The position numbers and the translations under genes are program-made. Shown here one piece after another: positions 1 through 11,838 of a stretch of DNA of 24,323 nucleotides. Each line of letters begins with the position of its first letter. The first letter of the stretch is position 1. Under the pieces are notes generated by a model that was not told where the DNA came from, did no database searches, and saw nothing but the letters and a program-made list of their open reading frames with translations. Source of the stretch: a virus (lineage: Duplodnaviria; Heunggongvirae; Uroviricota; Caudoviricetes); IMG/VR virus record IMGVR_UViG_2651869755_000001; one strand, given 5' to 3'.

Positions 1-176
1 CTTCCCGGAATGTTTTCGCCAGGGTCAATACCAGTGGAACAGGCGGGCATACTTACGCCAGTATTAATATATTCATCAGACCAGCCCGTATACTCAGATG
101 TTTCAGCATCATAATAAAAACAACGCATATCGCCCGGCACTGTAGCCAGCCCATTTTCATCAAAAACAGGTTTCAT
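1..176 (-). CDS. tail fibre assembly protein (Tfa-like), N-terminal part only; continues past the left edge
   Basis: ATG at 176-174 overlaps the TAA stop of the upstream 270-aa ORF (TAATG). Frame open to the window edge. Hand translation starts [32 protein letters not shown], resembling Tfa N-termini. Lies directly downstream of the fibre gene. Confidence 0.5.
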   Translation of the reverse strand, partial: MKPVFDENGLATVPGDMRCFYYDAETSEYTGWSDEYINTGVSMPACSTGIDPGENIPG

Positions 177-988
177 TATTTAGCCCTCACCAGAAAGTTA
201 AATGCAATATTTCGCGGTCTGACAGCAACAAAATTCACACCATCACCCACAGAGTTACTGGTGAAATTAAATCGTGAAAATCCTGGCTGATTTCCGGCGA
301 TGCCATCATGAAAGTTAATTGCGTGTCCCGCACCTTCGCCTATATTCCCGGCAAACTGAGAAAAGTTTGTAGCTGCCTGCCAGCTTAATAATTCGCGACC
401 ACCGTCTGCACCTCGCCCGTCATCCCAGATACGAATGAAATCACCGCGGGCTTCAGGTAATACCAGCGAAGGAAATACTTTCGCCAGCACAGGATAATCA
501 GTGGCAGAGAATTTCGCGCCGTTGAACTTCAAAAACACCATACTGGACCAGCTGTCGATTACAGTATTTGGCATTGCAGCGGACGGCCAGAAGAACGGAA
601 CGCCAATAGCTGGAGCACCTTCTCCCAAACCAAGGTTTTCGAGAGCCGTTTTCACTGTGCCGTCCGATTTGATATCGCCAAACGGATTTTTGCGGCTCAG
701 GTATTCAACAGCAAACCCCGATCCAAGCAATTCAACAAAACCGGGCAGATCACCATTATCAAGCACATCCCGTTGCGTTTTATCACTTACAAACTGGGCC
801 AGAGCTGCAGCAATAAAGCTGGCCTGCCGAATAACCTTATTGACTTGCGCACTGGAGGCTTTCCCTGCTGTAAATCCGGATAAAAGCGCGGGCAACGCTT
901 CCCATTCCTCCTGCGATATAACATTGGCATTTCGATCCGTTGCAAACGCTTTAAAGTCATTTTTCGCCATCAGAGTAATACTCCCCAT
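176..988 (-). CDS. putative tail fibre protein (270 aa)
   Basis: ORF track. ATG start confirmed at 988-986. Sits between the gp48-like baseplate gene and the Tfa-like gene. No catalytic motif recognised. Confidence 0.45.
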
Positions 989-1650
989 GCTCCTACATCA
1001 AAACCACTGATGAATTCGTTATCCATATCAAAACCAAAAAATTTTGAGCCTTCCGATGGGGTTTCCACCGAAGGTGTTTCAATGCCACCCGCCCATACCC
1101 CGGCGGCTTTTACTGTGAGATACCCCTGTTTAATTGCCGCAATTAACTCACGCGATACATCTGAAATATCAGTATCAGGAAAGACCCAGACCGATATCGT
1201 CATGTCCTGGTTATCGACTATCTGCATTCGCAGCCCGGATCCTGCTGTTGCAGCGTCAAGAATTGCCGGAAGCGAATCATTCCGTCCATCCCAGTTATTA
1301 ATCGCAATCTTCGCTTTAAGAATGACACGATAAGTTTCATCGCTGAGATACATGTATCCTGAATCAGGATCGTATGGTCCCTGCCATACCCCCTGATCAT
1401 ATCCAAGCCCGTCGGTATCCCAGCTGAAATAGACACCTGAGATAGGCTGGCTGACAACACGGCTACGTCCTATCCACAAGCCAAGAATGTCAAGTTGCAC
1501 ACCAACCGCAGAGTCAATATCAAATGCAGTAATCAGCCCTCTGGTGGCAGCCGCAACATCAATAAGTGGCCGGGTCATCAGATCAACATGCGCAAGAAAT
1601 TTAGGTTTGGTGGCGTGGTAGTTCGTGATTAGTTCGGTGTATTTGCTCAT
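970..1650 (-). CDS. baseplate/tail protein, Mu gp48-like (226 aa)
   Basis: ORF track. ATGA stop/start overlap with the upstream J-like gene at 1647-1650. Position after baseplate J as in Mu-like and e14-like tails. Confidence 0.55.
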
Positions 1651-2846
1651 GACTCCACCGTTATAACGATATTTTCCGGGGTACAGGACGCAGATTCGTT
1701 GTATCTGATATCAATGTTTGATGACGACAAAGCCCCCGGGGATTTCCCAATCGTCAGTTCCTGAATATCGTAATAGCGTGCATTCCCGCTACTCACCACG
1801 CCAAGATTCGCCGGTGAGTAAATGCGACTTAAAAGGACCGAATCACCAATCATCAGACTATTGATATAGTCGGAAATAGCCTGCTGGATCTGCTGCCCTA
1901 TCTGTGAGGTATAACCCGTAAAAACTTTTAATTTAATCCGGGCATAAACAGGCACATCACTGGAACGCGAGAATTTGATTACATGGGGATTGCCGTATTT
2001 ATCCGGAACCGTAACGGATGTTGTACCGTGAGTGGCTGTCCCCTGGCCTTTATTTCCTCTGATAGCCTGAGCAATATCCGTTACATCACCGCCATCCACA
2101 ATTACAGCAACAGAGTGTGGCGGTAACCCGTTACCGTCCTCCGAACCAGTATCGTTTTCATAGAGTTTGTGGCGGGTTACACCGGTAACATTAGAAACAG
2201 CACCATCCAGTGCTTCAAATGGGGTTATTGATGGCAACGCAACACTTTGCGACTGGCGGATACGTAACTCCGCATCAGTTTCTGCTGGAGTGCCTACAGT
2301 AGCTGCAGCAGGATTGGTTACCGAAACCCAGCCACGGGTTGGCGTATTAATTTCAGTGATAGTTCCAGCCAGCGCCGCCACTGCACCACTGACGGAACAT
2401 TTTGCGGTCACCATCACTGTACCATCCACGCCGACCACCACTGAAGCAGGCAAACGCCATATCACATTATTACTGTCTTTCACGCTGCCATTAATGATGG
2501 TTGTTCCGGCAGTTCCTGTAAGAAGCAAATCAACCGTAGAATTCGTCGCGCCTTTACGTGAAATACCATTTATTTTCACGTTACTGGTCAGTGCAGCCCC
2601 ATAGCCGGTTGCCGGTGAAAAACAGTTGTAGACAGTTATCGCCATATTATTGGCATCATGAATCGCCAGCGCCATCAGAGCCACCATCTGGCCGTCTTTG
2701 CTGTCCGGTTCGAGGTAGGCATCACTGCCATAAATCTGCTGAAAATAGCTAATCAGGGTGCTGAGTATCGTCTGATAATCAGGCGCACTGATCCCCTCCG
2801 CGGTTACCTTTGCAGATAAACCGAGAGAATCAAGGTTCAGAGCCAT
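1647..2846 (-). CDS. baseplate J-like protein (399 aa)
   Basis: ORF track. Size and position typical of the Mu gp47 / P2 gpJ family. Start overlaps the stop of the upstream gene at 2846. Confidence 0.65.
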   Translation of the reverse strand: MALNLDSLGLSAKVTAEGISAPDYQTILSTLISYFQQIYGSDAYLEPDSKDGQMVALMALAIHDANNMAITVYNCFSPATGYGAALTSNVKINGISRKGATNSTVDLLLTGTAGTTIINGSVKDSNNVIWRLPASVVVGVDGTVMVTAKCSVSGAVAALAGTITEINTPTRGWVSVTNPAAATVGTPAETDAELRIRQSQSVALPSITPFEALDGAVSNVTGVTRHKLYENDTGSEDGNGLPPHSVAVIVDGGDVTDIAQAIRGNKGQGTATHGTTSVTVPDKYGNPHVIKFSRSSDVPVYARIKLKVFTGYTSQIGQQIQQAISDYINSLMIGDSVLLSRIYSPANLGVVSSGNARYYDIQELTIGKSPGALSSSNIDIRYNESASCTPENIVITVES

Positions 2847-3199
2847 TACGCCTCCGATGTAACAGTCGTTATTCCATAAAGAGTGTCGATTTCAGCGGAA
2901 AACATGACACGTCGGGTCGTGGTATCCACCGTCGTATTGAAAGAGAGGATTGATTTAACGCCCTGCGTTTCGAGGATGCGCTTACGGATCGCCAGGTTGT
3001 AGGTTTCCGGCTTCTGCTTACCGAGTACGGACTGGATCCACGGAGTCCCCTCGGTGGTGTCGAGAAACCATTGCCCATACCACAATTCGAATCGAGTTTT
3101 TACCGCCTGCGCCACGGCCTCCGGTGAGTTAATCAGCCAAGTGTCATCACCGCTGCCAAAGGTGTAATCGCCATCGGCGTCTTCACGTCTGTATCGCAT
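2846..3199 (-). CDS. small baseplate protein, gp25/W-like (117 aa)
   Basis: ORF track. Lies between the spike and J genes. ATGA overlap with the spike gene at 3199. Confidence 0.45.
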   Translation of the reverse strand: MRYRREDADGDYTFGSGDDTWLINSPEAVAQAVKTRFELWYGQWFLDTTEGTPWIQSVLGKQKPETYNLAIRKRILETQGVKSILSFNTTVDTTTRRVMFSAEIDTLYGITTVTSEA

Positions 3200-6733: not shown

Positions 6734-7036
6734 TTACTCCGTTGATACCAGTAAATGGCTGCGACCGCCCAGGTCAGTTTTTGTGGGGTAATCCTGTGTG
6801 TTGTCATCACAGACCACCACCAGCTTAAAACCAAGCCCCATACAGGCGTACTGCGCCAGCAGGTCAGCACCAGTGACGAGAGGAATACCGGAGATTACCG
6901 GCTCCCCTCTGTCGTTCTGCAGGTCCATAATCCAGTACAGATCGCGCCATATGATGCTAATCCGCCAGGTGACACCACCCAGGACGATGCTGAACTGCTG
7001 GTTGTCCGCTGTCAGCGGAATTTCCTGAATTGTCAT
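6734..7036 (-). CDS. small tail/baseplate protein (100 aa)
   Basis: ORF track. Start overlaps the stop of the upstream gene. Synteny only. Confidence 0.4.
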   Translation of the reverse strand: MTIQEIPLTADNQQFSIVLGGVTWRISIIWRDLYWIMDLQNDRGEPVISGIPLVTGADLLAQYACMGLGFKLVVVCDDNTQDYPTKTDLGGRSHLLVSTE

Positions 7037-7623
7037 TAGCCGCCCCCCAGTAATGACGCCACGTTACCCGTGATGCTTTTCAGCAGTGAAGTATCTGGAG
7101 GTTTTGTGGTTTTGTTGCCGCTGTTCTGTACCGCCGACGTGCTGGCCCCTTCCTTCATGTTGGTTTTATCCGCGACGGTAATCTGCTGTGTCCGGGAGAT
7201 AATGACCTCCCTCAGGGTGAGGACGGCGGACAGGACGTTTTCGGTTGTCTTGTCCGTCGTCACTTCCAGCGCCCGGATCAACATGTTGCTGTACAGCCGT
7301 TTACCGGTTACCACATCGAAGGGGATACGGCTTTCCTGCAGATCCAGTAGCTCCTGATACGTCTGCTGAGGACTCAGGCCGAGCAGGCTGGTAGCCGTCA
7401 GGTTACTGGCAAAATCCAGCAATGCGCCGCCACCGGCGAAACCAACCTCCATCACCACTTCTGACGGTTTTTTATAGGCATGATCAGCGACAGCGGCCCC
7501 GACCTCTACCGGATGCTCTGTTATTTCAAGCATATCTGTATGCTTCTCTGAAATAACAACACTGGGAACAATCATTCCTATTTTTCTGCTCTGCTGATGA
7601 AAAAGTGTAGAGAGAATATCCAC
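7036..7623 (-). CDS. tail protein downstream of tape measure (195 aa)
   Basis: ORF track. Apparent GTG start at 7623-7621 preceded by GAGGGTGGG and overlapping the tape-measure stop. Synteny only. Confidence 0.4.
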   Translation of the reverse strand: MDILSTLFHQQSRKIGMIVPSVVISEKHTDMLEITEHPVEVGAAVADHAYKKPSEVVMEVGFAGGGALLDFASNLTATSLLGLSPQQTYQELLDLQESRIPFDVVTGKRLYSNMLIRALEVTTDKTTENVLSAVLTLREVIISRTQQITVADKTNMKEGASTSAVQNSGNKTTKPPDTSLLKSITGNVASLLGGG

Positions 7624-9608
7624 TAACCCACCCTCACCTGATTACTTCGCATGACCTGAGCATTTGCAGACTGTTGCCGACGTGCAACCTCATTACCGAC
7701 AGCGTGCGGATCTCCGCCACCGTAAATATGGTAGGTATTTTGCTGGTTAACCTCTGTCACTTTGCCACTAATTCCCGCCACGGCAGCCTTATTAATCAGC
7801 TCTCGAGAATAGATATTTCTTCCATTCTCATGCTGGATAATGCTGCTCATCAATGCTGACATGGTTTGCGGATCGCTCATATTCAGGGCAGCCCGGGGAT
7901 CCACTCCCAGTCGTTGCGATACAGCCCTGATATACGCGGTTGTGTTGTTATTATCAGACGCAGGTGCCCAGGTAGAGATAATTTTCTCCACACTGTTTAT
8001 TCCCCGTCCGGCGTACAGCATTAACTGACGAGCAAGAGCCCGTAATCCATCAAAAGCGGTTTCAAATCTGGCAAATCGCCCGCCCGGTCGTTCAAGAGAA
8101 GCCCCCGCCTGACCAGCAAAATTAAGGTTTCCCGGATTGTTATTCCGTTCTCCTCGCTTCGTAGCCTGTGCATGTTGTTCCGGCTCAGCACCTGGAATAT
8201 CTGACTGAATATTTGCGCCTTTTACGGTATGAGGATTACGACCAAAATCGGTATCAATGCCAAGCCAGCGCAATGAATCTCCAATATTTTGTTTCGTGTA
8301 ATCCCAGGATGACTTCGCACTGGCACCAATATTTTCGCGATCGGAGTACAAATAAGCAGCATAAGCCATCCAGCCTTTTAACCATGGCGGTACCGGCAAA
8401 CCAGATATTTTCCCGAAAGCCCCCAGAACCCTGGATACCCAGACACCCGCGATGAATGTACCGAGGATTTCCAGTGCATTTTGCCAGCCGCCAACACCAT
8501 CTTTTAGTTCCAGAAGGTGATCACGAAGCCAGGTGATCGCATCCTTCGCTTTATCTATTGCCGGTTGCCATTTTTCCCAGTCGATAAGACTGTTACCGCC
8601 TTCTTTCCATGTTTTGTAGTCTTCCCACAAGAGACCGAGAGCCACGATCAGACCGGTAATCAGCCCTATAGGTGACATCCAGAAAGTAGAGTTAAGTATC
8701 CGCATGGCGACAACCAGACCGCCGATAACCTCTATCAGGGTTTTCGTTTCGGCATCCAGTTTCCCCCACCACTCGATGATATCTCCGACACCATCGACTA
8801 TCCGAAATGCTACCCGCCCGACTATCTCACCCAGCCAGAGGATCCCCTTTATGACCTTTGTGATGGTGACTTCAATTTTGGGAAAATTTTCAATTATCTT
8901 TTTGCGCAGGTTATCAATCTGCCCCGCCAGTCCGTCCGCAAGATTCGATCCGATTTTGTCCCGCGCCATCCCGGCCATTTCACCGAGCGATTTCAGCGAG
9001 GTCATAAACCGGTTTGACGATAAGGCAGCCTGATCGGCATTAAATCCGATCGCTTTCACCATTTCTGAATACTGAGCGCTGAACTGCCCCACTCCGCGAC
9101 GCATAGCCATCAGGGTATTTTCGTCAATGCCCAGCATCTGCGCATACTGGTTAGCCCGGTAATACGGCATGCTGCTGAGTTTCTGTCCAACGCCCGTAAA
9201 GATAGCAGCCATGTCACGCATGTTACCGCGGGCATCACGGGTCTGTACGCCCAGGCGATTCAGAAAGCCTTCTGCTCCGGGATTGTTACGAATAAACCGG
9301 GAGAGGCTTTCCAGAGAAGATCGCGCAGCGTCCACACTGCCGCCAACCTGCGAAACCGCATAGCCAATAGACTGAATTCCCTGGACCGTCGCGCCGGTGC
9401 GCTGTGACGCCCAGTAAAGATTATCCAGGCCGGAGGCGATCTTAGCCGTGAAGGCCACCACGGACAGCGCAGCTCCTTCAACAGCCAGCCCCATTTTGAT
9501 GACATTTGCAGTTGTACCGGCGAGGACAGAACCGAACTTTTTCGCTCCTGCATCATCCACACTGAAGCCAAGCGAGACGAGGAAATCTTTAATAGTTTCA
9601 GCGTTCAT
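7623..9608 (-). CDS. tail tape measure protein
   Basis: Longest tail ORF, between chaperone and baseplate genes, with a hydrophobic central segment. The track start at 9629 is TTG; the ATG at 9608-9606 preceded by GGAGAGAGG is the more likely start (about 661 aa). Confidence 0.75.
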   Translation of the reverse strand: MNAETIKDFLVSLGFSVDDAGAKKFGSVLAGTTANVIKMGLAVEGAALSVVAFTAKIASGLDNLYWASQRTGATVQGIQSIGYAVSQVGGSVDAARSSLESLSRFIRNNPGAEGFLNRLGVQTRDARGNMRDMAAIFTGVGQKLSSMPYYRANQYAQMLGIDENTLMAMRRGVGQFSAQYSEMVKAIGFNADQAALSSNRFMTSLKSLGEMAGMARDKIGSNLADGLAGQIDNLRKKIIENFPKIEVTITKVIKGILWLGEIVGRVAFRIVDGVGDIIEWWGKLDAETKTLIEVIGGLVVAMRILNSTFWMSPIGLITGLIVALGLLWEDYKTWKEGGNSLIDWEKWQPAIDKAKDAITWLRDHLLELKDGVGGWQNALEILGTFIAGVWVSRVLGAFGKISGLPVPPWLKGWMAYAAYLYSDRENIGASAKSSWDYTKQNIGDSLRWLGIDTDFGRNPHTVKGANIQSDIPGAEPEQHAQATKRGERNNNPGNLNFAGQAGASLERPGGRFARFETAFDGLRALARQLMLYAGRGINSVEKIISTWAPASDNNNTTAYIRAVSQRLGVDPRAALNMSDPQTMSALMSSIIQHENGRNIYSRELINKAAVAGISGKVTEVNQQNTYHIYGGGDPHAVGNEVARRQQSANAQVMRSNQVRVG

Positions 9609-10238
9609 TATCCTCTCTCCATTTCTCAATGCGCCGCTGGTTATCCGCTTTTACCGCCAGATGGTCATTCAAGAGAGCAATGTCATACAAATCGACAGAG
9701 CCATCTTTAAGTGCTGTATAGGGAATTAACCCGGCGTCAACCGGATTGAGAAGGTAGGACAGCCCGTCCGGCAGGCTGTTAAACGTCAGCCCTGTTGCAG
9801 GCTCTGTGTCGTGCTGGTAAGGGGTGTAGGCAAAAAATTTCCCAGCGAATCGGCGACCACCCGCGCCACCAGATGAAGCATGACCAGCAAGTCAATATCA
9901 TCAAACATCAGTTCACCCTGGGTAAATACCGGAACCCATCCGTCCATATGACGCCGCGACACCACCGCAAGACAGGGATGAATAATCGCATCGGTGTCAT
10001 CTTCGGTCAGGGAAGACAGTTCCTCAGCGATACGCGGGAGCATGGTTTCAAACACCGGTTTTAACTGCTCGAATTTCACGGTGTCGATTTTGCCGTCAGC
10101 AGGCAAACGGGAGCGAATGCTCCCGAAATCTGACATCATTCCCGCCAGTACCGGCAGAAGTTTGCGGGTCACTTTCAGCTGGTCAAAAACGCTGAGTTTT
10201 GCCACGCGATATTTCACGCCTTTAATTTCGAATTCCAT
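9598..10238 (-). CDS. predicted chaperone frameshift fusion product (G-T-like, about 213 aa)
   Basis: Zero frame 10238 to about 9841 joined to the -1 frame 9840-9598. The extension was hand-translated with no stops (…NSLPDGLSYLLNPVDAGLIPYTALKDGSVDLYDIALLNDHLAVKADNQRRIEKWREDNER) and fills the otherwise non-coding 156-bp gap before the tape measure. Confidence 0.45.
9786..10238 (-). CDS. tail assembly chaperone (150 aa, zero-frame product)
   Basis: ORF track. ATG start. Lies between the tube and tape measure genes. Confidence 0.6.
   Translation of the reverse strand: MEFEIKGVKYRVAKLSVFDQLKVTRKLLPVLAGMMSDFGSIRSRLPADGKIDTVKFEQLKPVFETMLPRIAEELSSLTEDDTDAIIHPCLAVVSRRHMDGWVPVFTQGELMFDDIDLLVMLHLVARVVADSLGNFLPTPLTSTTQSLQQG
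9837..9843 (-). other. candidate -1 programmed frameshift slippery heptamer G_GGA_AAT in the tail assembly chaperone gene
   Basis: Minus strand reads CTG GGA AAT TTT TTG in the chaperone zero frame. The -1 frame is open from here for about 80 codons to a TGA at 9600-9598. The lambda G/GT site is GGGAAAG. Confidence 0.5.
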
Positions 10239-10241
10239 GCA

Positions 10242-10682
10242 TTAAAACTCCCCGAGAACCTGGTCAATCTTGCCGCAGTCAAACACCCACGGCATCGTAT
10301 TACCGGTTTTAGCGTTGGCGTTATCCGGTTGTTTCTGGAACGCAACACTGCGTGCCGTGATGATGTCGCCGCTGACCTTGTTGCGGATCACGATAACGTT
10401 ATTCCCCCATGTGGCAGAAGACTGGCTCTGTGCGTTATACGCCAGCGACAATTTTTTATTTGTCGGTGATGTCTTCAGAAGGTTAACGGTAATCGTCCCG
10501 CTTTTATCTGCATGGAGGCTGTGCATCACTTCACCATCAGCACCGATGGTCATGGTGTTTTTAGGACCGCCCATCGCAACCACAATCCCCTCTTCAGAAC
10601 TTGCAGAACCGTACCCGAGGTCAATCGAACCGGTCGGGCCGGTCAGCGTCGCAGTGACATCCATAAAAGAATAGGTAGACAT
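10242..10682 (-). CDS. tail tube protein (146 aa)
   Basis: ORF track. Directly downstream of the sheath gene. Size typical of a tube protein. Confidence 0.55.
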   Translation of the reverse strand: MSTYSFMDVTATLTGPTGSIDLGYGSASSEEGIVVAMGGPKNTMTIGADGEVMHSLHADKSGTITVNLLKTSPTNKKLSLAYNAQSQSSATWGNNVIVIRNKVSGDIITARSVAFQKQPDNANAKTGNTMPWVFDCGKIDQVLGEF

Positions 10683-10692
10683 TCACTTCCCC

Positions 10693-11838
10693 TTAGCGAA
10701 CAACGTTAATCTGTACGTCAGCGTAATGAACCGCGCCTGCAAGTTTTATTGCAGCCTGAATCACCGGAGCCTTACGGGCTTCACGTTCTGATTGTGCCTG
10801 TTCATCCAGCGGCTGGGCGTATACGTAATAACCTTTGGGCAGTGTGTCACCTGATGACAACTGACCAAGGTCGCCCCCGTTCCATACGCCCGGAGCAATC
10901 AGTCCATTCTGAACGGCCTGATCCAGTGATTTTTCAACATTTGATAACAGTCGGGTAATACCGGCTTCAGTCTGGGGAACTTTCGTGGTGCTGGTATAAA
11001 GCAGGTTATAGAGGTTGGTCTGCACATAATTCTGTAACCAGTCCAGGCCGTGGCGTTCATCAAAGAAATCGCCGTTAGCCATCACTCCCTGCTGGAGGAT
11101 AGCCGTATCATTCTGGTAGTACACGAATACATTGCAGTTTTTTGCATCAAGTGCCGATGCCTGGCTGACTGTCAGTGTTTCATACCCGACACCCGGCTCC
11201 TGCTTAAACTTGAGCGTAATCGCGGTATTACTGCCATTGAAATTAACCGTGAATACCCGGCCAAATGCAGATAACGCAGCGTATTTATTACCCGAGGAAT
11301 ACTGAATAAAACTGCGTGAATATCCGGCGGTTTTCAGTTTTGATGCCAAATCATCGCTGGATGCAGTCTGCAGGCATTTATCATCGCTTGTCGTAATCGC
11401 CAGAATACGGCTTACAGAAGAGGATTCGATCACCGCAGCCACTTTCAGCCAGTCTGCATCCGGAATATCTTCATCGTCTGCAATCCCCAGCCCATACCAT
11501 GAAGTATAATCGAGCATGGCATTCACAGCCTGCTCCAGCGTCTCAGGCGTGGCCTGTTCGCTGTCTCCCTTCGTTTTCACCCAACGACCAACAAAAACCT
11601 CCTGAGGTTTCGGTGATTGTGAGAAAAACACCTGCGCAGCTTTATATTCTGGTGATTCCACGCCAAAATCTTTTCCAATATCTTCCGCGGCAGAATAACG
11701 ACGAATGCGCTCACTTACCGGAATGATTGTGGACGGGCCGAGAATGAGTAATGCACCAAAATTTCGCCCTGATGCTGCACGCGGCGACATGATCACATCA
11801 ACATTAACAACGTTTGATACAGGCAAGCCCTGTGCCAT
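10693..11838 (-). CDS. tail sheath protein (381 aa)
   Basis: ORF track. Large ORF immediately before the tube gene. Assigned by synteny with contractile tails. Confidence 0.55.

What the first reader, a model, noticed from the sequence alone, without database searches (positions are those of the whole stretch)
9598..9843. Candidate -1 programmed ribosomal frameshift producing a G-T-type tail chaperone fusion
The chaperone ORF contains the heptamer G_GGA_AAT followed by TTTTTT. From that point the -1 frame stays open for about 80 codons across the otherwise non-coding gap and ends 11 nt into the tape measure gene. This is the conserved tailed-phage arrangement and explains the apparent 156-bp gap.
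Basis: partly seen in the sequence, partly recalled or inferred. Interest (0 to 1): 0.45.

Follow-up and report, generated by a model that had tools for sequence, protein, structure and literature searches.

The report
Tail chaperone -1 frameshift, ordinary

Summary
On the minus strand the 150-codon tail assembly chaperone gene (9786-10238, Pfam Phage_TAC_15) lies between the tail tube gene and the tape measure gene. It contains GGGAAATTTTTTG (9843-9831). From there the -1 frame stays open for 81 codons, to TGA 9600-9598, 11 nt inside the tape measure gene (ATG 9608).

The extension is real coding sequence. It matches Pfam DUF6889 (E 9e-20). It is kept open in about 57 of 59 species-level relatives and in 12 distant phages. 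The most variable codon position switches to the -1 frame at the slippery run. The -1 frame has no conserved start codon.

- The gap is 177 nt, not 156.
- The run holds three overlapping in-phase heptamers: G_GGA_AAT, A_AAT_TTT and T_TTT_TTG. Comparative and published reporter data favour the T-run motifs over G_GGA_AAT.
- No conserved downstream RNA structure was found.

NCBI's PGAP pipeline annotates the extension as a separate 54-aa "DUF6889 family protein" with a CTG start, which is very probably wrong. Klebsiella phage Mulock (identical slippery run) and Burkholderia phage Magia already carry the joined "frameshift product" CDS. Nothing here was tested experimentally. Interest is low.

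The parts
9786..10238 (-). Zero-frame tail assembly chaperone gene (TAC-N, 150 aa; stop TGA 9788-9786)
   Evidence: Pfam PF21822 Phage_TAC_15 at E 7e-31 and phrog_1688 'tail assembly chaperone' at E 6e-65. It lies between the tube and tape measure genes. PGAP names it 'phage tail assembly chaperone' in a 99.8% identical E. coli prophage.
9831..9843 (-). Slippery run GGGAAATTTTTTG. It holds three overlapping in-phase heptamers: G_GGA_AAT (9843-9837), A_AAT_TTT (9840-9834) and T_TTT_TTG (9837-9831).
   Evidence: Read directly from the sequence. The 13-mer is identical in 49 of 59 species-level loci at a fixed distance from the zero-frame stop. It occurs once in the window against 0.03 expected. 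All tblastn alignments of the chaperone to 40 phage records end at residue 134-135, which is this site.
9598..9834 (-). -1 frame extension: 78 codons after the shift, plus TGA 9600-9598. It gives a 213-aa long form (TAC-NC), with junction ...SLGNFFAYTPY... if the shift is on either of the first two heptamers, or ...SLGNFLAYTPY... if on T_TTT_TTG.
   Evidence: Translation. The extension is 80-86 codons in 56 of 58 distinct relatives. The -1 frame third codon position is the most variable from the slippery run onward. The first canonical start codon lies anywhere from codon 11 to codon 63 of the extension.
9607..9723 (-). DUF6889 domain within the extension (residues 173-211 of the long form); proposed counterpart of the lambda 'T' domain
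   Evidence: Pfam PF21829 at E 9e-20. phrog_4364 at E 1.4e-22 covers residues 161-213. The conserved motif LP.GED...RPV....L.DG..DL.DIA.MND.L...A.N is found in distant phages. The AlphaFold2 model is helical here, pLDDT about 70.
9598..9762 (-). Footprint of the stand-alone 'DUF6889 family protein' CDS that PGAP calls in identical prophages (CTG start at 9762). Judged to be an annotation artefact.
   Evidence: WP_071819661.1, locus coordinates converted to the window. The CTG codon is Leu27 of the extension and is Glu in more distant relatives. Database fragments of this family start at many different positions.
9857..9862 (-). GGGTGG, a weakly Shine-Dalgarno-like hexamer 13 nt upstream of the first heptamer; possible stimulator (speculative)
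   Evidence: It is made by the codons CGG GTG GT. The rare Arg codon CGG is used in 37 of 48 distinct contexts, and GGGTGG is present in 35 of 48. It is not conserved in Photorhabdus-type relatives. Its function was not tested.
7623..9608 (-). Tape measure gene (661 aa, ATG 9608). Its first 11 nt overlap the end of the -1 extension.
   Evidence: phrog_2276 'tail length tape measure protein' at E 5e-265. The same start is annotated in relatives. The sequence AATGAACGCTGA is conserved.
10242..10682 (-). Tail tube gene immediately upstream (146 aa); by analogy, the likely binding partner of the extension domain
   Evidence: Pfam PF11681 at E 9e-61. The domain is named Phage_Tube_PhiTE. The sheath gene (DUF3383) lies upstream at 10693-11838.

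Best explanation
This is a programmed -1 ribosomal frameshift in the tail assembly chaperone gene of a SEN34-like (Brunovirus-like) temperate myophage integrated in E. coli.

Most ribosomes read the gene in the zero frame and stop at TGA 9788-9786, giving the 150-aa short chaperone. A minority slip back one nucleotide on the run G_GGA_AAU_UUU_UUG (9843-9831) and read 78 further codons to TGA 9600-9598. This gives a 213-aa long form made of the chaperone core, a variable linker and a conserved C-terminal DUF6889 domain.

By analogy with lambda gpG/gpGT and P2 E/E+E', the shared N-terminal part coats the tape measure protein. The frameshift-encoded domain recruits the tube protein so that the tube polymerises around the tape measure. 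The frameshift efficiency sets the ratio of the two forms.

Shown here, by computation only: the ORF geometry, the domain identity of both parts, deep conservation of the open -1 frame and of a slippery motif at the same codon, the switch of coding periodicity, and the absence of a conserved start codon.

Inferred: that ribosomes actually shift, where in the run they shift, how often, and what the extension binds. The most likely shift sites are A_AAU_UUU or the overlapping U_UUU_UUG, with G_GGA_AAU as a possible contributor.
For: Position and family:
- The gene matches Pfam Phage_TAC_15 and lies between the tube and tape measure genes.

The extension is a real domain:
- It matches DUF6889 at E 9e-20 and phrog_4364 at E 1.4e-22.

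Conservation of the open frame:
- In 59 genome loci from different species (38-85% identity) the -1 frame runs 185-197 nt past the zero-frame stop in 56. The +1 frame runs a median of 25 nt.
- The extension is 80-86 codons in 56 of 58 distinct sequences.
- In 12 phages at 26-59% identity the extension is again open for 167-227 nt, with the same motif.

Coding signature:
- Third-position variability follows the zero frame upstream (entropy 0.44/0.21/1.06 bits by codon position).
- It follows the -1 frame in the 42-nt overlap (0.96/0.75/1.24) and in the extension (0.66/0.58/1.33).

Slippery motif at the same codon in every relative:
- GGGAAATTTTTTG in 49 of 59 loci.
- C_CCT_TTT in Burkholderia phages.
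- A_AAT_TTT in Acinetobacter phages.
- G_GGA_AAT alone in Bordetella phage IFTN9 and locus L022.
- T_TTT_TTG alone in Erwinia-type loci. One of these, L058, has a -1 frame stop directly before the T-run.

Other points:
- Homology of the zero-frame protein ends at residue 134-135, which is the slippery codon, in all 40 phage records.
- Independent annotators already joined the two frames in Klebsiella phage Mulock and Burkholderia phage Magia.
- P2 uses TTTTTTG without a downstream hairpin (PMC3091744).
- A conserved poly-T -1 frameshift is reported for the chaperone of phages with the same KPP10-type tail (PMC12846349).
- The lambda mechanism is described in PMC5009743.
Against: There is no experimental evidence for this family: no junction peptide and no reporter assay.

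In E. coli reporters each of the three heptamers is close to background without a stimulator: 0.07%, 0.07% and 0.12%, against about 0.055% (PMC4066793 supplement; section 17). No conserved downstream structure was found (RNAalifold essentially empty; window z-scores -0.2 to -0.9). What makes the site efficient enough is therefore unexplained.

The upstream GGGTGG is only weakly Shine-Dalgarno-like and is not universal.

The AlphaFold2 model was too poor (mean pLDDT 46.5) to confirm the chaperone fold. No solved homologue exists.
Confidence: 0.9

Rival explanations
1. The extension is an independent small gene (the PGAP 'DUF6889 family protein', 9598-9762). It would be translated from its own near-cognate start (CTG 9762) or by re-initiation after the chaperone stop, not by frameshifting.
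For: PGAP annotates it this way in 99.8% identical E. coli prophages. Small stand-alone DUF6889 entries exist in databases. In some distant phages a short ORF is called in the gap.
Against: The window has no ATG, GTG or TTG in the -1 frame before codon 51 of the extension, which lies inside the domain. Across relatives the first canonical start ranges from codon 11 to codon 63. The CTG codon is Glu in more distant relatives. Database fragments begin at many different residues and range from 43 to 78 aa. Only 28 such entries were found, against more than 600 chaperone entries. Sequence conservation and -1 frame periodicity begin at the slippery run, 27 codons upstream of the CTG and overlapping the chaperone ORF.
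Confidence: 0.04
2. The frame change is made by RNA polymerase, not the ribosome. Transcriptional slippage on the T6 run (A3T6 context) would add or drop a U in a fraction of mRNAs, and these would then encode the fused protein directly.
For: A homopolymeric T6 run is present in 58 of 59 close loci. Assemblies with T7, T5 or T4 at this run exist, so the run is indel-prone at some level. PMC4066793 notes that U7 and A7 runs are avoided in genes, possibly for this reason.
Against: From established knowledge, efficient slippage by bacterial RNA polymerase needs runs of about 8-9 or more, so T6 is short. Relatives keep the same extension with runs far too short for polymerase slippage: C_CCT_TTT-A in Burkholderia phages, GGGAAATAC in Bordetella phage IFTN9 and GGGAAATATTTTG in L022. 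All of these still offer a ribosomal slippery heptamer in phase. The motifs are always in the X_XXY_YYZ phase of the zero frame, which matters to ribosomes but not to polymerase.
Confidence: 0.04
3. Nothing is expressed from the -1 frame. The gap would be a decaying remnant of an ancestral longer gene, or non-coding spacer that happens to be open.
For: An open run of 77 codons arises in 2.1% of dinucleotide shuffles. The single heptamers are near background in reporters.
Against: A remnant would accumulate stops and indels. Instead the frame and its length are kept in about 57 of 59 species-level loci and in phages down to 26% identity. The pattern is one of purifying selection, with the third codon position most variable, and there is a significant Pfam domain match.
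Confidence: 0.02

Closest known systems
Klebsiella phage Mulock tape measure chaperone and its annotated frameshift product (MN098327, CPT_Mulock_014/015); also Burkholderia phage Magia gp15/gp16 (NC_070954)
   Same: Same protein family (58% and 26% identity to the chaperone here). Same gene order: sheath, tube, chaperone, tape measure. Mulock has the identical run GGGAAATTTTTTG, an extension of the same length, and the same AATGAACGCTGA overlap with the tape measure start.
   Different: Those records already carry the joined CDS. The records closest to this window do not: E. coli prophages annotated by PGAP, phage SEN34, Yersinia phage YP3 and vB_EcoM-606R2. Magia uses C_CCT_TTT instead. Neither annotation is backed by an experiment that I could find; the Mulock announcement does not mention the frameshift.
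Bacteriophage P2 E / E+E' (contractile-tail phage, -1 frameshift at T_TTT_TTG)
   Same: A myophage chaperone gene between the tube and tape measure genes. A -1 shift on a T6G run, with no downstream hairpin (PMC3091744). Here too T_TTT_TTG is present and no conserved structure is found.
   Different: Different protein family: no Pfam or PHROG match to the P2 proteins came up. The run here is extended upstream by GGGAAA, which gives two more in-phase heptamers.
Bacteriophage lambda gpG / gpGT (G_GGA_AAG)
   Same: The founding example. [quoted passage not shown] The first heptamer here differs from lambda's only in the last base.
   Different: Lambda is a siphovirus with unrelated sequences. Its A-site codon is AAG, highly shift-prone in E. 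coli. AAU here is a poor one: G_GGA_AAU gives 1.05% against 43% for G_GGA_AAG with the IS3 pseudoknot.
Conserved GTTTTT -1 frameshift in the chaperone locus of Vandenendeviridae (Pakpunavirus) and Andersonviridae (PMC12846349)
   Same: These phages share the KPP10-type tail module (DUF3383 sheath, KPP10_Orf10 tube). The argument is the same: the downstream 'hypothetical protein' is really the C-terminal part of the long form, and the slippery motif is poly-T.
   Different: They are lytic Pseudomonas and other phages. Their chaperones were not retrieved as homologues here, so any relationship of the chaperones themselves is untested.

Membership tests
G/GT-type frameshifted tail assembly chaperone pair (Xu, Hendrix and Duda 2004 definition) | The gene pair lies between the major tail (tube) gene and the tape measure gene | tested here: met
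   Tube gene 10242-10682, chaperone 9786-10238, tape measure 7623-9608, all on the minus strand.
G/GT-type frameshifted tail assembly chaperone pair (Xu, Hendrix and Duda 2004 definition) | The second ORF overlaps the 3' end of the first in the -1 frame and lacks its own conserved start codon | tested here: met
   The -1 ORF overlaps the chaperone by 103 nt and runs 188 nt past its stop. The first canonical start is at codon 51 here and ranges from 11 to 63 in relatives.
G/GT-type frameshifted tail assembly chaperone pair (Xu, Hendrix and Duda 2004 definition) | A slippery X_XXY_YYZ heptamer in the zero-frame phase within the overlap, conserved in relatives | tested here: met
   Three overlapping heptamers at 9843-9831. 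At least one in-phase heptamer, or a U_UUU/U_UUC tetramer, is found at or next to the same codon in all loci examined.
G/GT-type frameshifted tail assembly chaperone pair (Xu, Hendrix and Duda 2004 definition) | The arrangement (open -1 extension) is conserved among relatives despite sequence divergence | tested here: met
   56-57 of 59 genome loci and 12 of 12 distant phages. Codon-phase switch.
G/GT-type frameshifted tail assembly chaperone pair (Xu, Hendrix and Duda 2004 definition) | Both products are actually made, at a fixed ratio, and the long form is required for tail assembly | not testable with these tools
   This needs proteomics, reporter assays and genetics. No such data were found for this family.
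G/GT-type frameshifted tail assembly chaperone pair (Xu, Hendrix and Duda 2004 definition) | The N-terminal part binds the tape measure protein and the frameshift-encoded domain binds the tube protein | not testable with these tools
   Inferred from lambda only (PMC5009743).
Pfam PF21822 Phage_TAC_15 | Score above the curated gathering threshold over the full domain | tested here: met
   107.8 bits against a cut-off of 22; residues 6-138 match profile positions 1-122 of 127.
Pfam PF21829 DUF6889 | Score above the curated gathering threshold | tested here: met
   70.6 bits against a cut-off of 23.9; residues 173-211 of the conceptual long form match profile positions 2-40 of 40.
Tail assembly chaperone fold (structural) | The predicted or solved structure resembles known chaperone structures | tested here: inconclusive
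   The AlphaFold2 model has mean pLDDT 46.5 and pTM 0.28, too poor for a fold search. There is no sequence match in the PDB.
dnaX / IS911-type stimulated -1 frameshift signal | A downstream stem-loop or pseudoknot 5-9 nt after the heptamer | tested here: not met
   The RNAalifold consensus over 45 sequences is essentially unpaired (0 to -1.8 kcal/mol). The window MFE z-scores are -0.2 to -0.9. No Rfam match.
dnaX / IS911-type stimulated -1 frameshift signal | An upstream Shine-Dalgarno-like element about 10-14 nt before the heptamer | tested here: inconclusive
   GGGTGG lies 13 nt before G_GGA_AAT and is present in 35 of 48 distinct contexts, with the rare CGG codon preferred. The pairing is weak (an internal U-U mismatch) and the element is absent in Photorhabdus-type loci.

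The most novel reading that the evidence does not exclude
The 13-nt run may be a composite signal in which two or three overlapping heptamers (G_GGA_AAU, A_AAU_UUU, U_UUU_UUG) each contribute. It would work without a downstream RNA structure, possibly helped by the upstream GGGUGG or by the nascent peptide. Redundancy, rather than a stimulator, would then set the ratio of short to long chaperone. Lineages that keep only one of the motifs (Bordetella phage IFTN9 and L022 keep G_GGA_AAU; Erwinia-type loci keep U_UUU_UUG; Burkholderia phages have C_CCU_UUU) would be natural dissection mutants.
Probability: 0.3. Interest if true: 0.3.

Novelty: already known. Interest (0 to 1): 0.15.

Why it matters
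The main value is for annotation. In several hundred E. coli genomes (346 of 5426 complete genomes carry this chaperone) and in SEN34-like phage records, the extension is either left as a 177-nt gap or called as a separate 54-aa "DUF6889 family protein" with a CTG start. Older database entries even name it "NTP pyrophosphohydrolase".

The analysis gives DUF6889 a probable identity: the frameshift-encoded C-terminal domain of Phage_TAC_15 chaperones, the counterpart of the lambda T domain.

The natural variation of the slippery run across the family could serve as a ready-made panel for asking which heptamers work in Enterobacteria without a stimulatory structure. Beyond that, it does not change what is known about phage tail assembly or recoding.

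Tried and rejected
- **Downstream stimulatory RNA.** I ran RNAalifold on 45 distinct relatives over five spans and folded the window sequence with shuffles. There was no consensus structure and the z-scores were -0.2 to -0.9, with +1.3 for one span. An Rfam scan found nothing relevant.
- **Terminator or promoter in the gap.** None found.
- **Structure.** The AlphaFold2 model of the 213-aa fusion P0001, built with a 38-sequence alignment, had mean pLDDT 46.5. Only the C-terminal helices reached about 70. I did not run a fold search because a model this poor gives meaningless matches. PDB sequence search: no homologue. NCBIfam: no model hit.
- **One-ORF fusions as independent support.** About ten assemblies encode 212-213-aa in-frame fusions. 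All arise from homopolymer length changes at the T-run (T7, T4, or T5 plus a C-run deletion). They cannot be told apart from sequencing errors, so I do not count them as evidence.
- **Independent start for the extension.** Rejected.
- **Zero-frame readthrough of TGA 9788-9786.** Rejected: the zero frame has another stop about 20 codons later and is not the conserved frame.
- **TTG 9629 as the tape measure start.** Rejected in favour of ATG 9608: it has the ribosome-binding site, is used in all annotated relatives, and matches the PHROG profile from residue 1.
- **Literature.** A search for DUF6889 returned nothing. The Mulock announcement does not discuss the frameshift.
Full report
**The observation**

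All genes in this part of the window are on the minus strand. The chaperone ORF runs from 10238 to 9786: 150 codons plus TGA at 9788-9786. Near its 3' end the zero frame reads CTG GGA AAT TTT TTG CCT. This places G_GGA_AAT at 9843-9837 and a T6 run at 9837-9832.

Read one base back, the sequence GGG AAA TTT TTT GCC ... has no stop for 81 codons, then TGA at 9600-9598. The tape measure gene starts at ATG 9608, preceded by GGAGAGAGGA.

The "156-bp gap" is not correct. The distance between the chaperone stop and ATG 9608 is 177 nt. The figure of 156 comes from the mechanical TTG start at 9629 in the ORF list. That start has no ribosome-binding site and is not used in any annotated relative.

The chance figures are modest on their own:
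- 77 open codons arise in 2.1% of dinucleotide shuffles.
- The 13-mer occurs once in the window, against 0.03 expected.
- Of 20 in-phase heptamers in 31 genes of the window, only those in this gene open into a long, unassigned -1 ORF that passes the stop.

**What the pieces are**

The 150-aa protein is a Pfam Phage_TAC_15 tail assembly chaperone (E 7e-31) and matches phrog_1688 (E 6e-65). Upstream lie the tube gene (KPP10_Orf10 / Phage_Tube_PhiTE) and the sheath gene (DUF3383). Downstream lies the tape measure gene (phrog_2276, E 5e-265).

The conceptual long form adds a second significant domain, Pfam DUF6889 (E 9e-20, residues 173-211), and phrog_4364 (E 1.4e-22). The "gap" therefore encodes a recognised protein domain, in the -1 frame.

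The window is a SEN34-like (Brunovirus-like) temperate myophage. It is 98.5% identical to Escherichia phage vB_EcoM-606R2 over this stretch, 84% to Yersinia phage YP3 and 75% to Salmonella phage SEN34. The chaperone is present in 346 of 5426 complete E. coli genomes.

**Comparative test**

I collected 59 loci from one genome per species (38-85% protein identity), 80 near-identical viral contigs and 12 more distant phages (26-59% identity).

*Open frame.* In the genome set the -1 frame runs 185-197 nt past the zero-frame stop in 56 of 59 loci. The +1 frame runs a median of 25 nt. The three exceptions:
- L013 has a disrupted chaperone gene, but its extension is intact.
- L032 has a premature stop in the extension.
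- L062 is a degraded copy.

The extension is 80-86 codons in 56 of 58 distinct sequences. It is conserved from its first codons: F-F-A-R-T-P-x-x-x-D ... L-P-x-G ... R-P-V ... D-L-x-D-I-A-x-M-N-D.

*Codon phase.* Across 45 distinct sequences with identical geometry, per-column entropy by codon position behaves as follows:

| Region | Frame used for codon positions | Position 1 | Position 2 | Position 3 |
|---|---|---|---|---|
| Upstream of the run | zero | 0.44 | 0.21 | 1.06 |
| 42-nt overlap | -1 | 0.96 | 0.75 | 1.24 |
| Beyond the zero-frame stop | -1 | 0.66 | 0.58 | 1.33 |

Selection therefore switches frame at the slippery run. The zero-frame tail of about 15 residues is not conserved. In line with this, every tblastn alignment of the chaperone to 40 phage records stops at residue 134-135, the slippery codon.

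*Distant phages.* In Burkholderia, Bordetella, Acinetobacter, Ralstonia, Providencia and Edwardsiella phages the -1 extension is again open for 167-227 nt and carries the same motif.

**Is the extension a separate gene?**

PGAP annotates it so: a 54-aa "DUF6889 family protein" that maps to window 9598-9762 and starts at a CTG codon. The evidence is against this:
- The window has no ATG, GTG or TTG in the -1 frame before codon 51 of the extension, which is inside the domain.
- Among relatives the first canonical start wanders from codon 11 to codon 63.
- The CTG codon is glutamate in more distant relatives.
- The 28 stand-alone database entries are fragments of 43-78 aa that begin at different residues, and many carry the unrelated name "NTP pyrophosphohydrolase".
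- Conservation and periodicity begin 27 codons upstream of the CTG.

**Which slippery site?**

The run holds three overlapping heptamers, all in the X_XXY_YYZ phase: G_GGA_AAT, A_AAT_TTT and T_TTT_TTG. Shifts on the first two give the same protein (...SLGNFFAYTPY...). A shift on the third gives ...SLGNFLAYTPY....

Across the 59 sequences compared (the window plus 58 genome loci; L062 excluded), T_TTT at the Phe codon is present in 58, A_AAT_TTT in 54 and G_GGA_AAT in 51.

Natural variants are informative:
- Erwinia-type loci keep only T_TTT_TTG. One of them, L058, has a -1 frame stop immediately before the T-run, so the shift there cannot be further upstream.
- Burkholderia phages have C_CCT_TTT at the same codons.
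- Acinetobacter phages have A_AAT_TTT.
- Bordetella phage IFTN9 and L022 keep only G_GGA_AAT.

Both ends of the run therefore appear to be usable in some lineage, and the Phe codon preceded by U is the commonest element.

Published E. coli reporter values (PMC4066793 supplement; the source table prints the first motif as "GGGAAU"):

| Heptamer | No stimulator | IS911 stimulators | IS3 pseudoknot |
|---|---|---|---|
| G_GGA_AAU | 0.069% | 0.112% | 1.05% |
| A_AAU_UUU | 0.070% | 0.355% | 11.4% |
| U_UUU_UUG | 0.118% | 0.247% | 0.765% |

That paper ranks H_HH.U_UU.Y, the class that includes A_AAU_UUU, among the best classes in E. coli. P2 nevertheless uses TTTTTTG, with no downstream hairpin (PMC3091744).

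**Stimulators**

No conserved downstream structure was found, there is no Rfam match and no terminator or promoter in the gap.

Upstream, the codons CGG GTG GT form GGGTGG 13 nt before the first heptamer. The rare Arg codon CGG is used in 37 of 48 distinct contexts. This hints at a Shine-Dalgarno-like stimulator of the dnaX or IS911 kind. However, the pairing is weak and the element is missing in Photorhabdus-type relatives.

Each heptamer alone is near background in reporters. What makes the site efficient enough is the one open point.

**Transcriptional slippage**

T6 is short for polymerase slippage. Relatives with only T4, or with an interrupted run, keep the same extension and still keep an in-phase ribosomal heptamer. 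I rate this rival low.

**Mechanism**

By analogy with lambda gpG/gpGT (PMC5009743) and P2 E/E+E', the short form and the N-terminal part of the long form would bind the tape measure protein. The DUF6889 domain would recruit the tube protein encoded just upstream. The shift frequency would fix the ratio of the two forms. These functional steps are inferred, not shown.

**Comparison with what is known**

The arrangement meets every sequence-level criterion of the conserved tail chaperone frameshift. More to the point, the same frameshift in the same protein family is already annotated in two phage records:
- Klebsiella phage Mulock (58% identity, identical run) carries a joined "tape measure chaperone frameshift product" CDS.
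- Burkholderia phage Magia also carries one.

A 2025 paper argues for a conserved poly-T -1 frameshift in the chaperone locus of phages with the same tail type (PMC12846349). The finding is therefore correct but not new. Its practical value is to correct the annotation of the E. coli and Salmonella prophages and to give DUF6889 a probable role.

**What led nowhere**

- The AlphaFold2 model of the fusion was poor: mean pLDDT 46.5, with only the C-terminal helices near 70. No fold search was run.
- The PDB and NCBIfam gave no hits.
- One-ORF fusions in about ten assemblies all come from homopolymer indels at the run and may be sequencing errors.

Noticed in passing
window 9598-9762 (-); proteins P0122-P0148: Stand-alone 'DUF6889' database entries are fragments of 43-78 aa with different artificial starts. 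Many are named 'NTP pyrophosphohydrolase', an apparently propagated misannotation. PGAP now calls a 54-aa CDS with a CTG start.
   Followed up: yes
L005 1896-1908; proteins P0001, P0149-P0161: About ten assemblies, including E. coli ISC7 (CDL28562.1), encode 212-213-aa in-frame chaperone+DUF6889 fusions. They arise from length changes of the T-run (T7, T4, or T5 plus loss of a C in the next C-run). These could be sequencing errors or real long-form-only mutants; the two were not told apart.
   Followed up: partly
window 7042-7048 (-): G_GGG_GGC lies four codons before the stop of the Dit-like baseplate gene (7036-7623). Its -1 frame is the next gene (6734-7036). That gene has its own ATG in a TAATGA overlap, so the G-run is most simply its ribosome-binding site rather than a second frameshift site.
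   Followed up: partly
window 7623-9608 (-): The C-terminal third of the tape measure protein (about residues 407-650) matches lytic transglycosylase and endolysin PHROGs, and PGAP names the gene 'lytic transglycosylase' in many genomes. It appears to be a tape measure protein with a built-in cell-wall hydrolase domain.
   Followed up: no
L017 (Chryseobacterium sp. 18061 assembly), L065 (Bacillus sp. AFS073361, 395-nt contig): Assemblies of non-enterobacterial organisms carry this enterobacterial-type chaperone locus at 69-75% identity. This is probably contamination of those assemblies.
   Followed up: no
L032 (Enterobacter sp. R1), L062 and L013 (Apirhabdus apintestini): A few relatives have a premature stop in the extension (L032, 41 codons) or a disrupted chaperone gene (L013; L062 with T5). 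These are probably decaying prophages.
   Followed up: no
L004 (E. coli C25, NZ_CP127314) 1-3046: In the 99.8% identical E. coli genome the prophage tail-fibre end abuts pphA, yebW and yebV, which indicates the chromosomal neighbourhood of this prophage.
   Followed up: no
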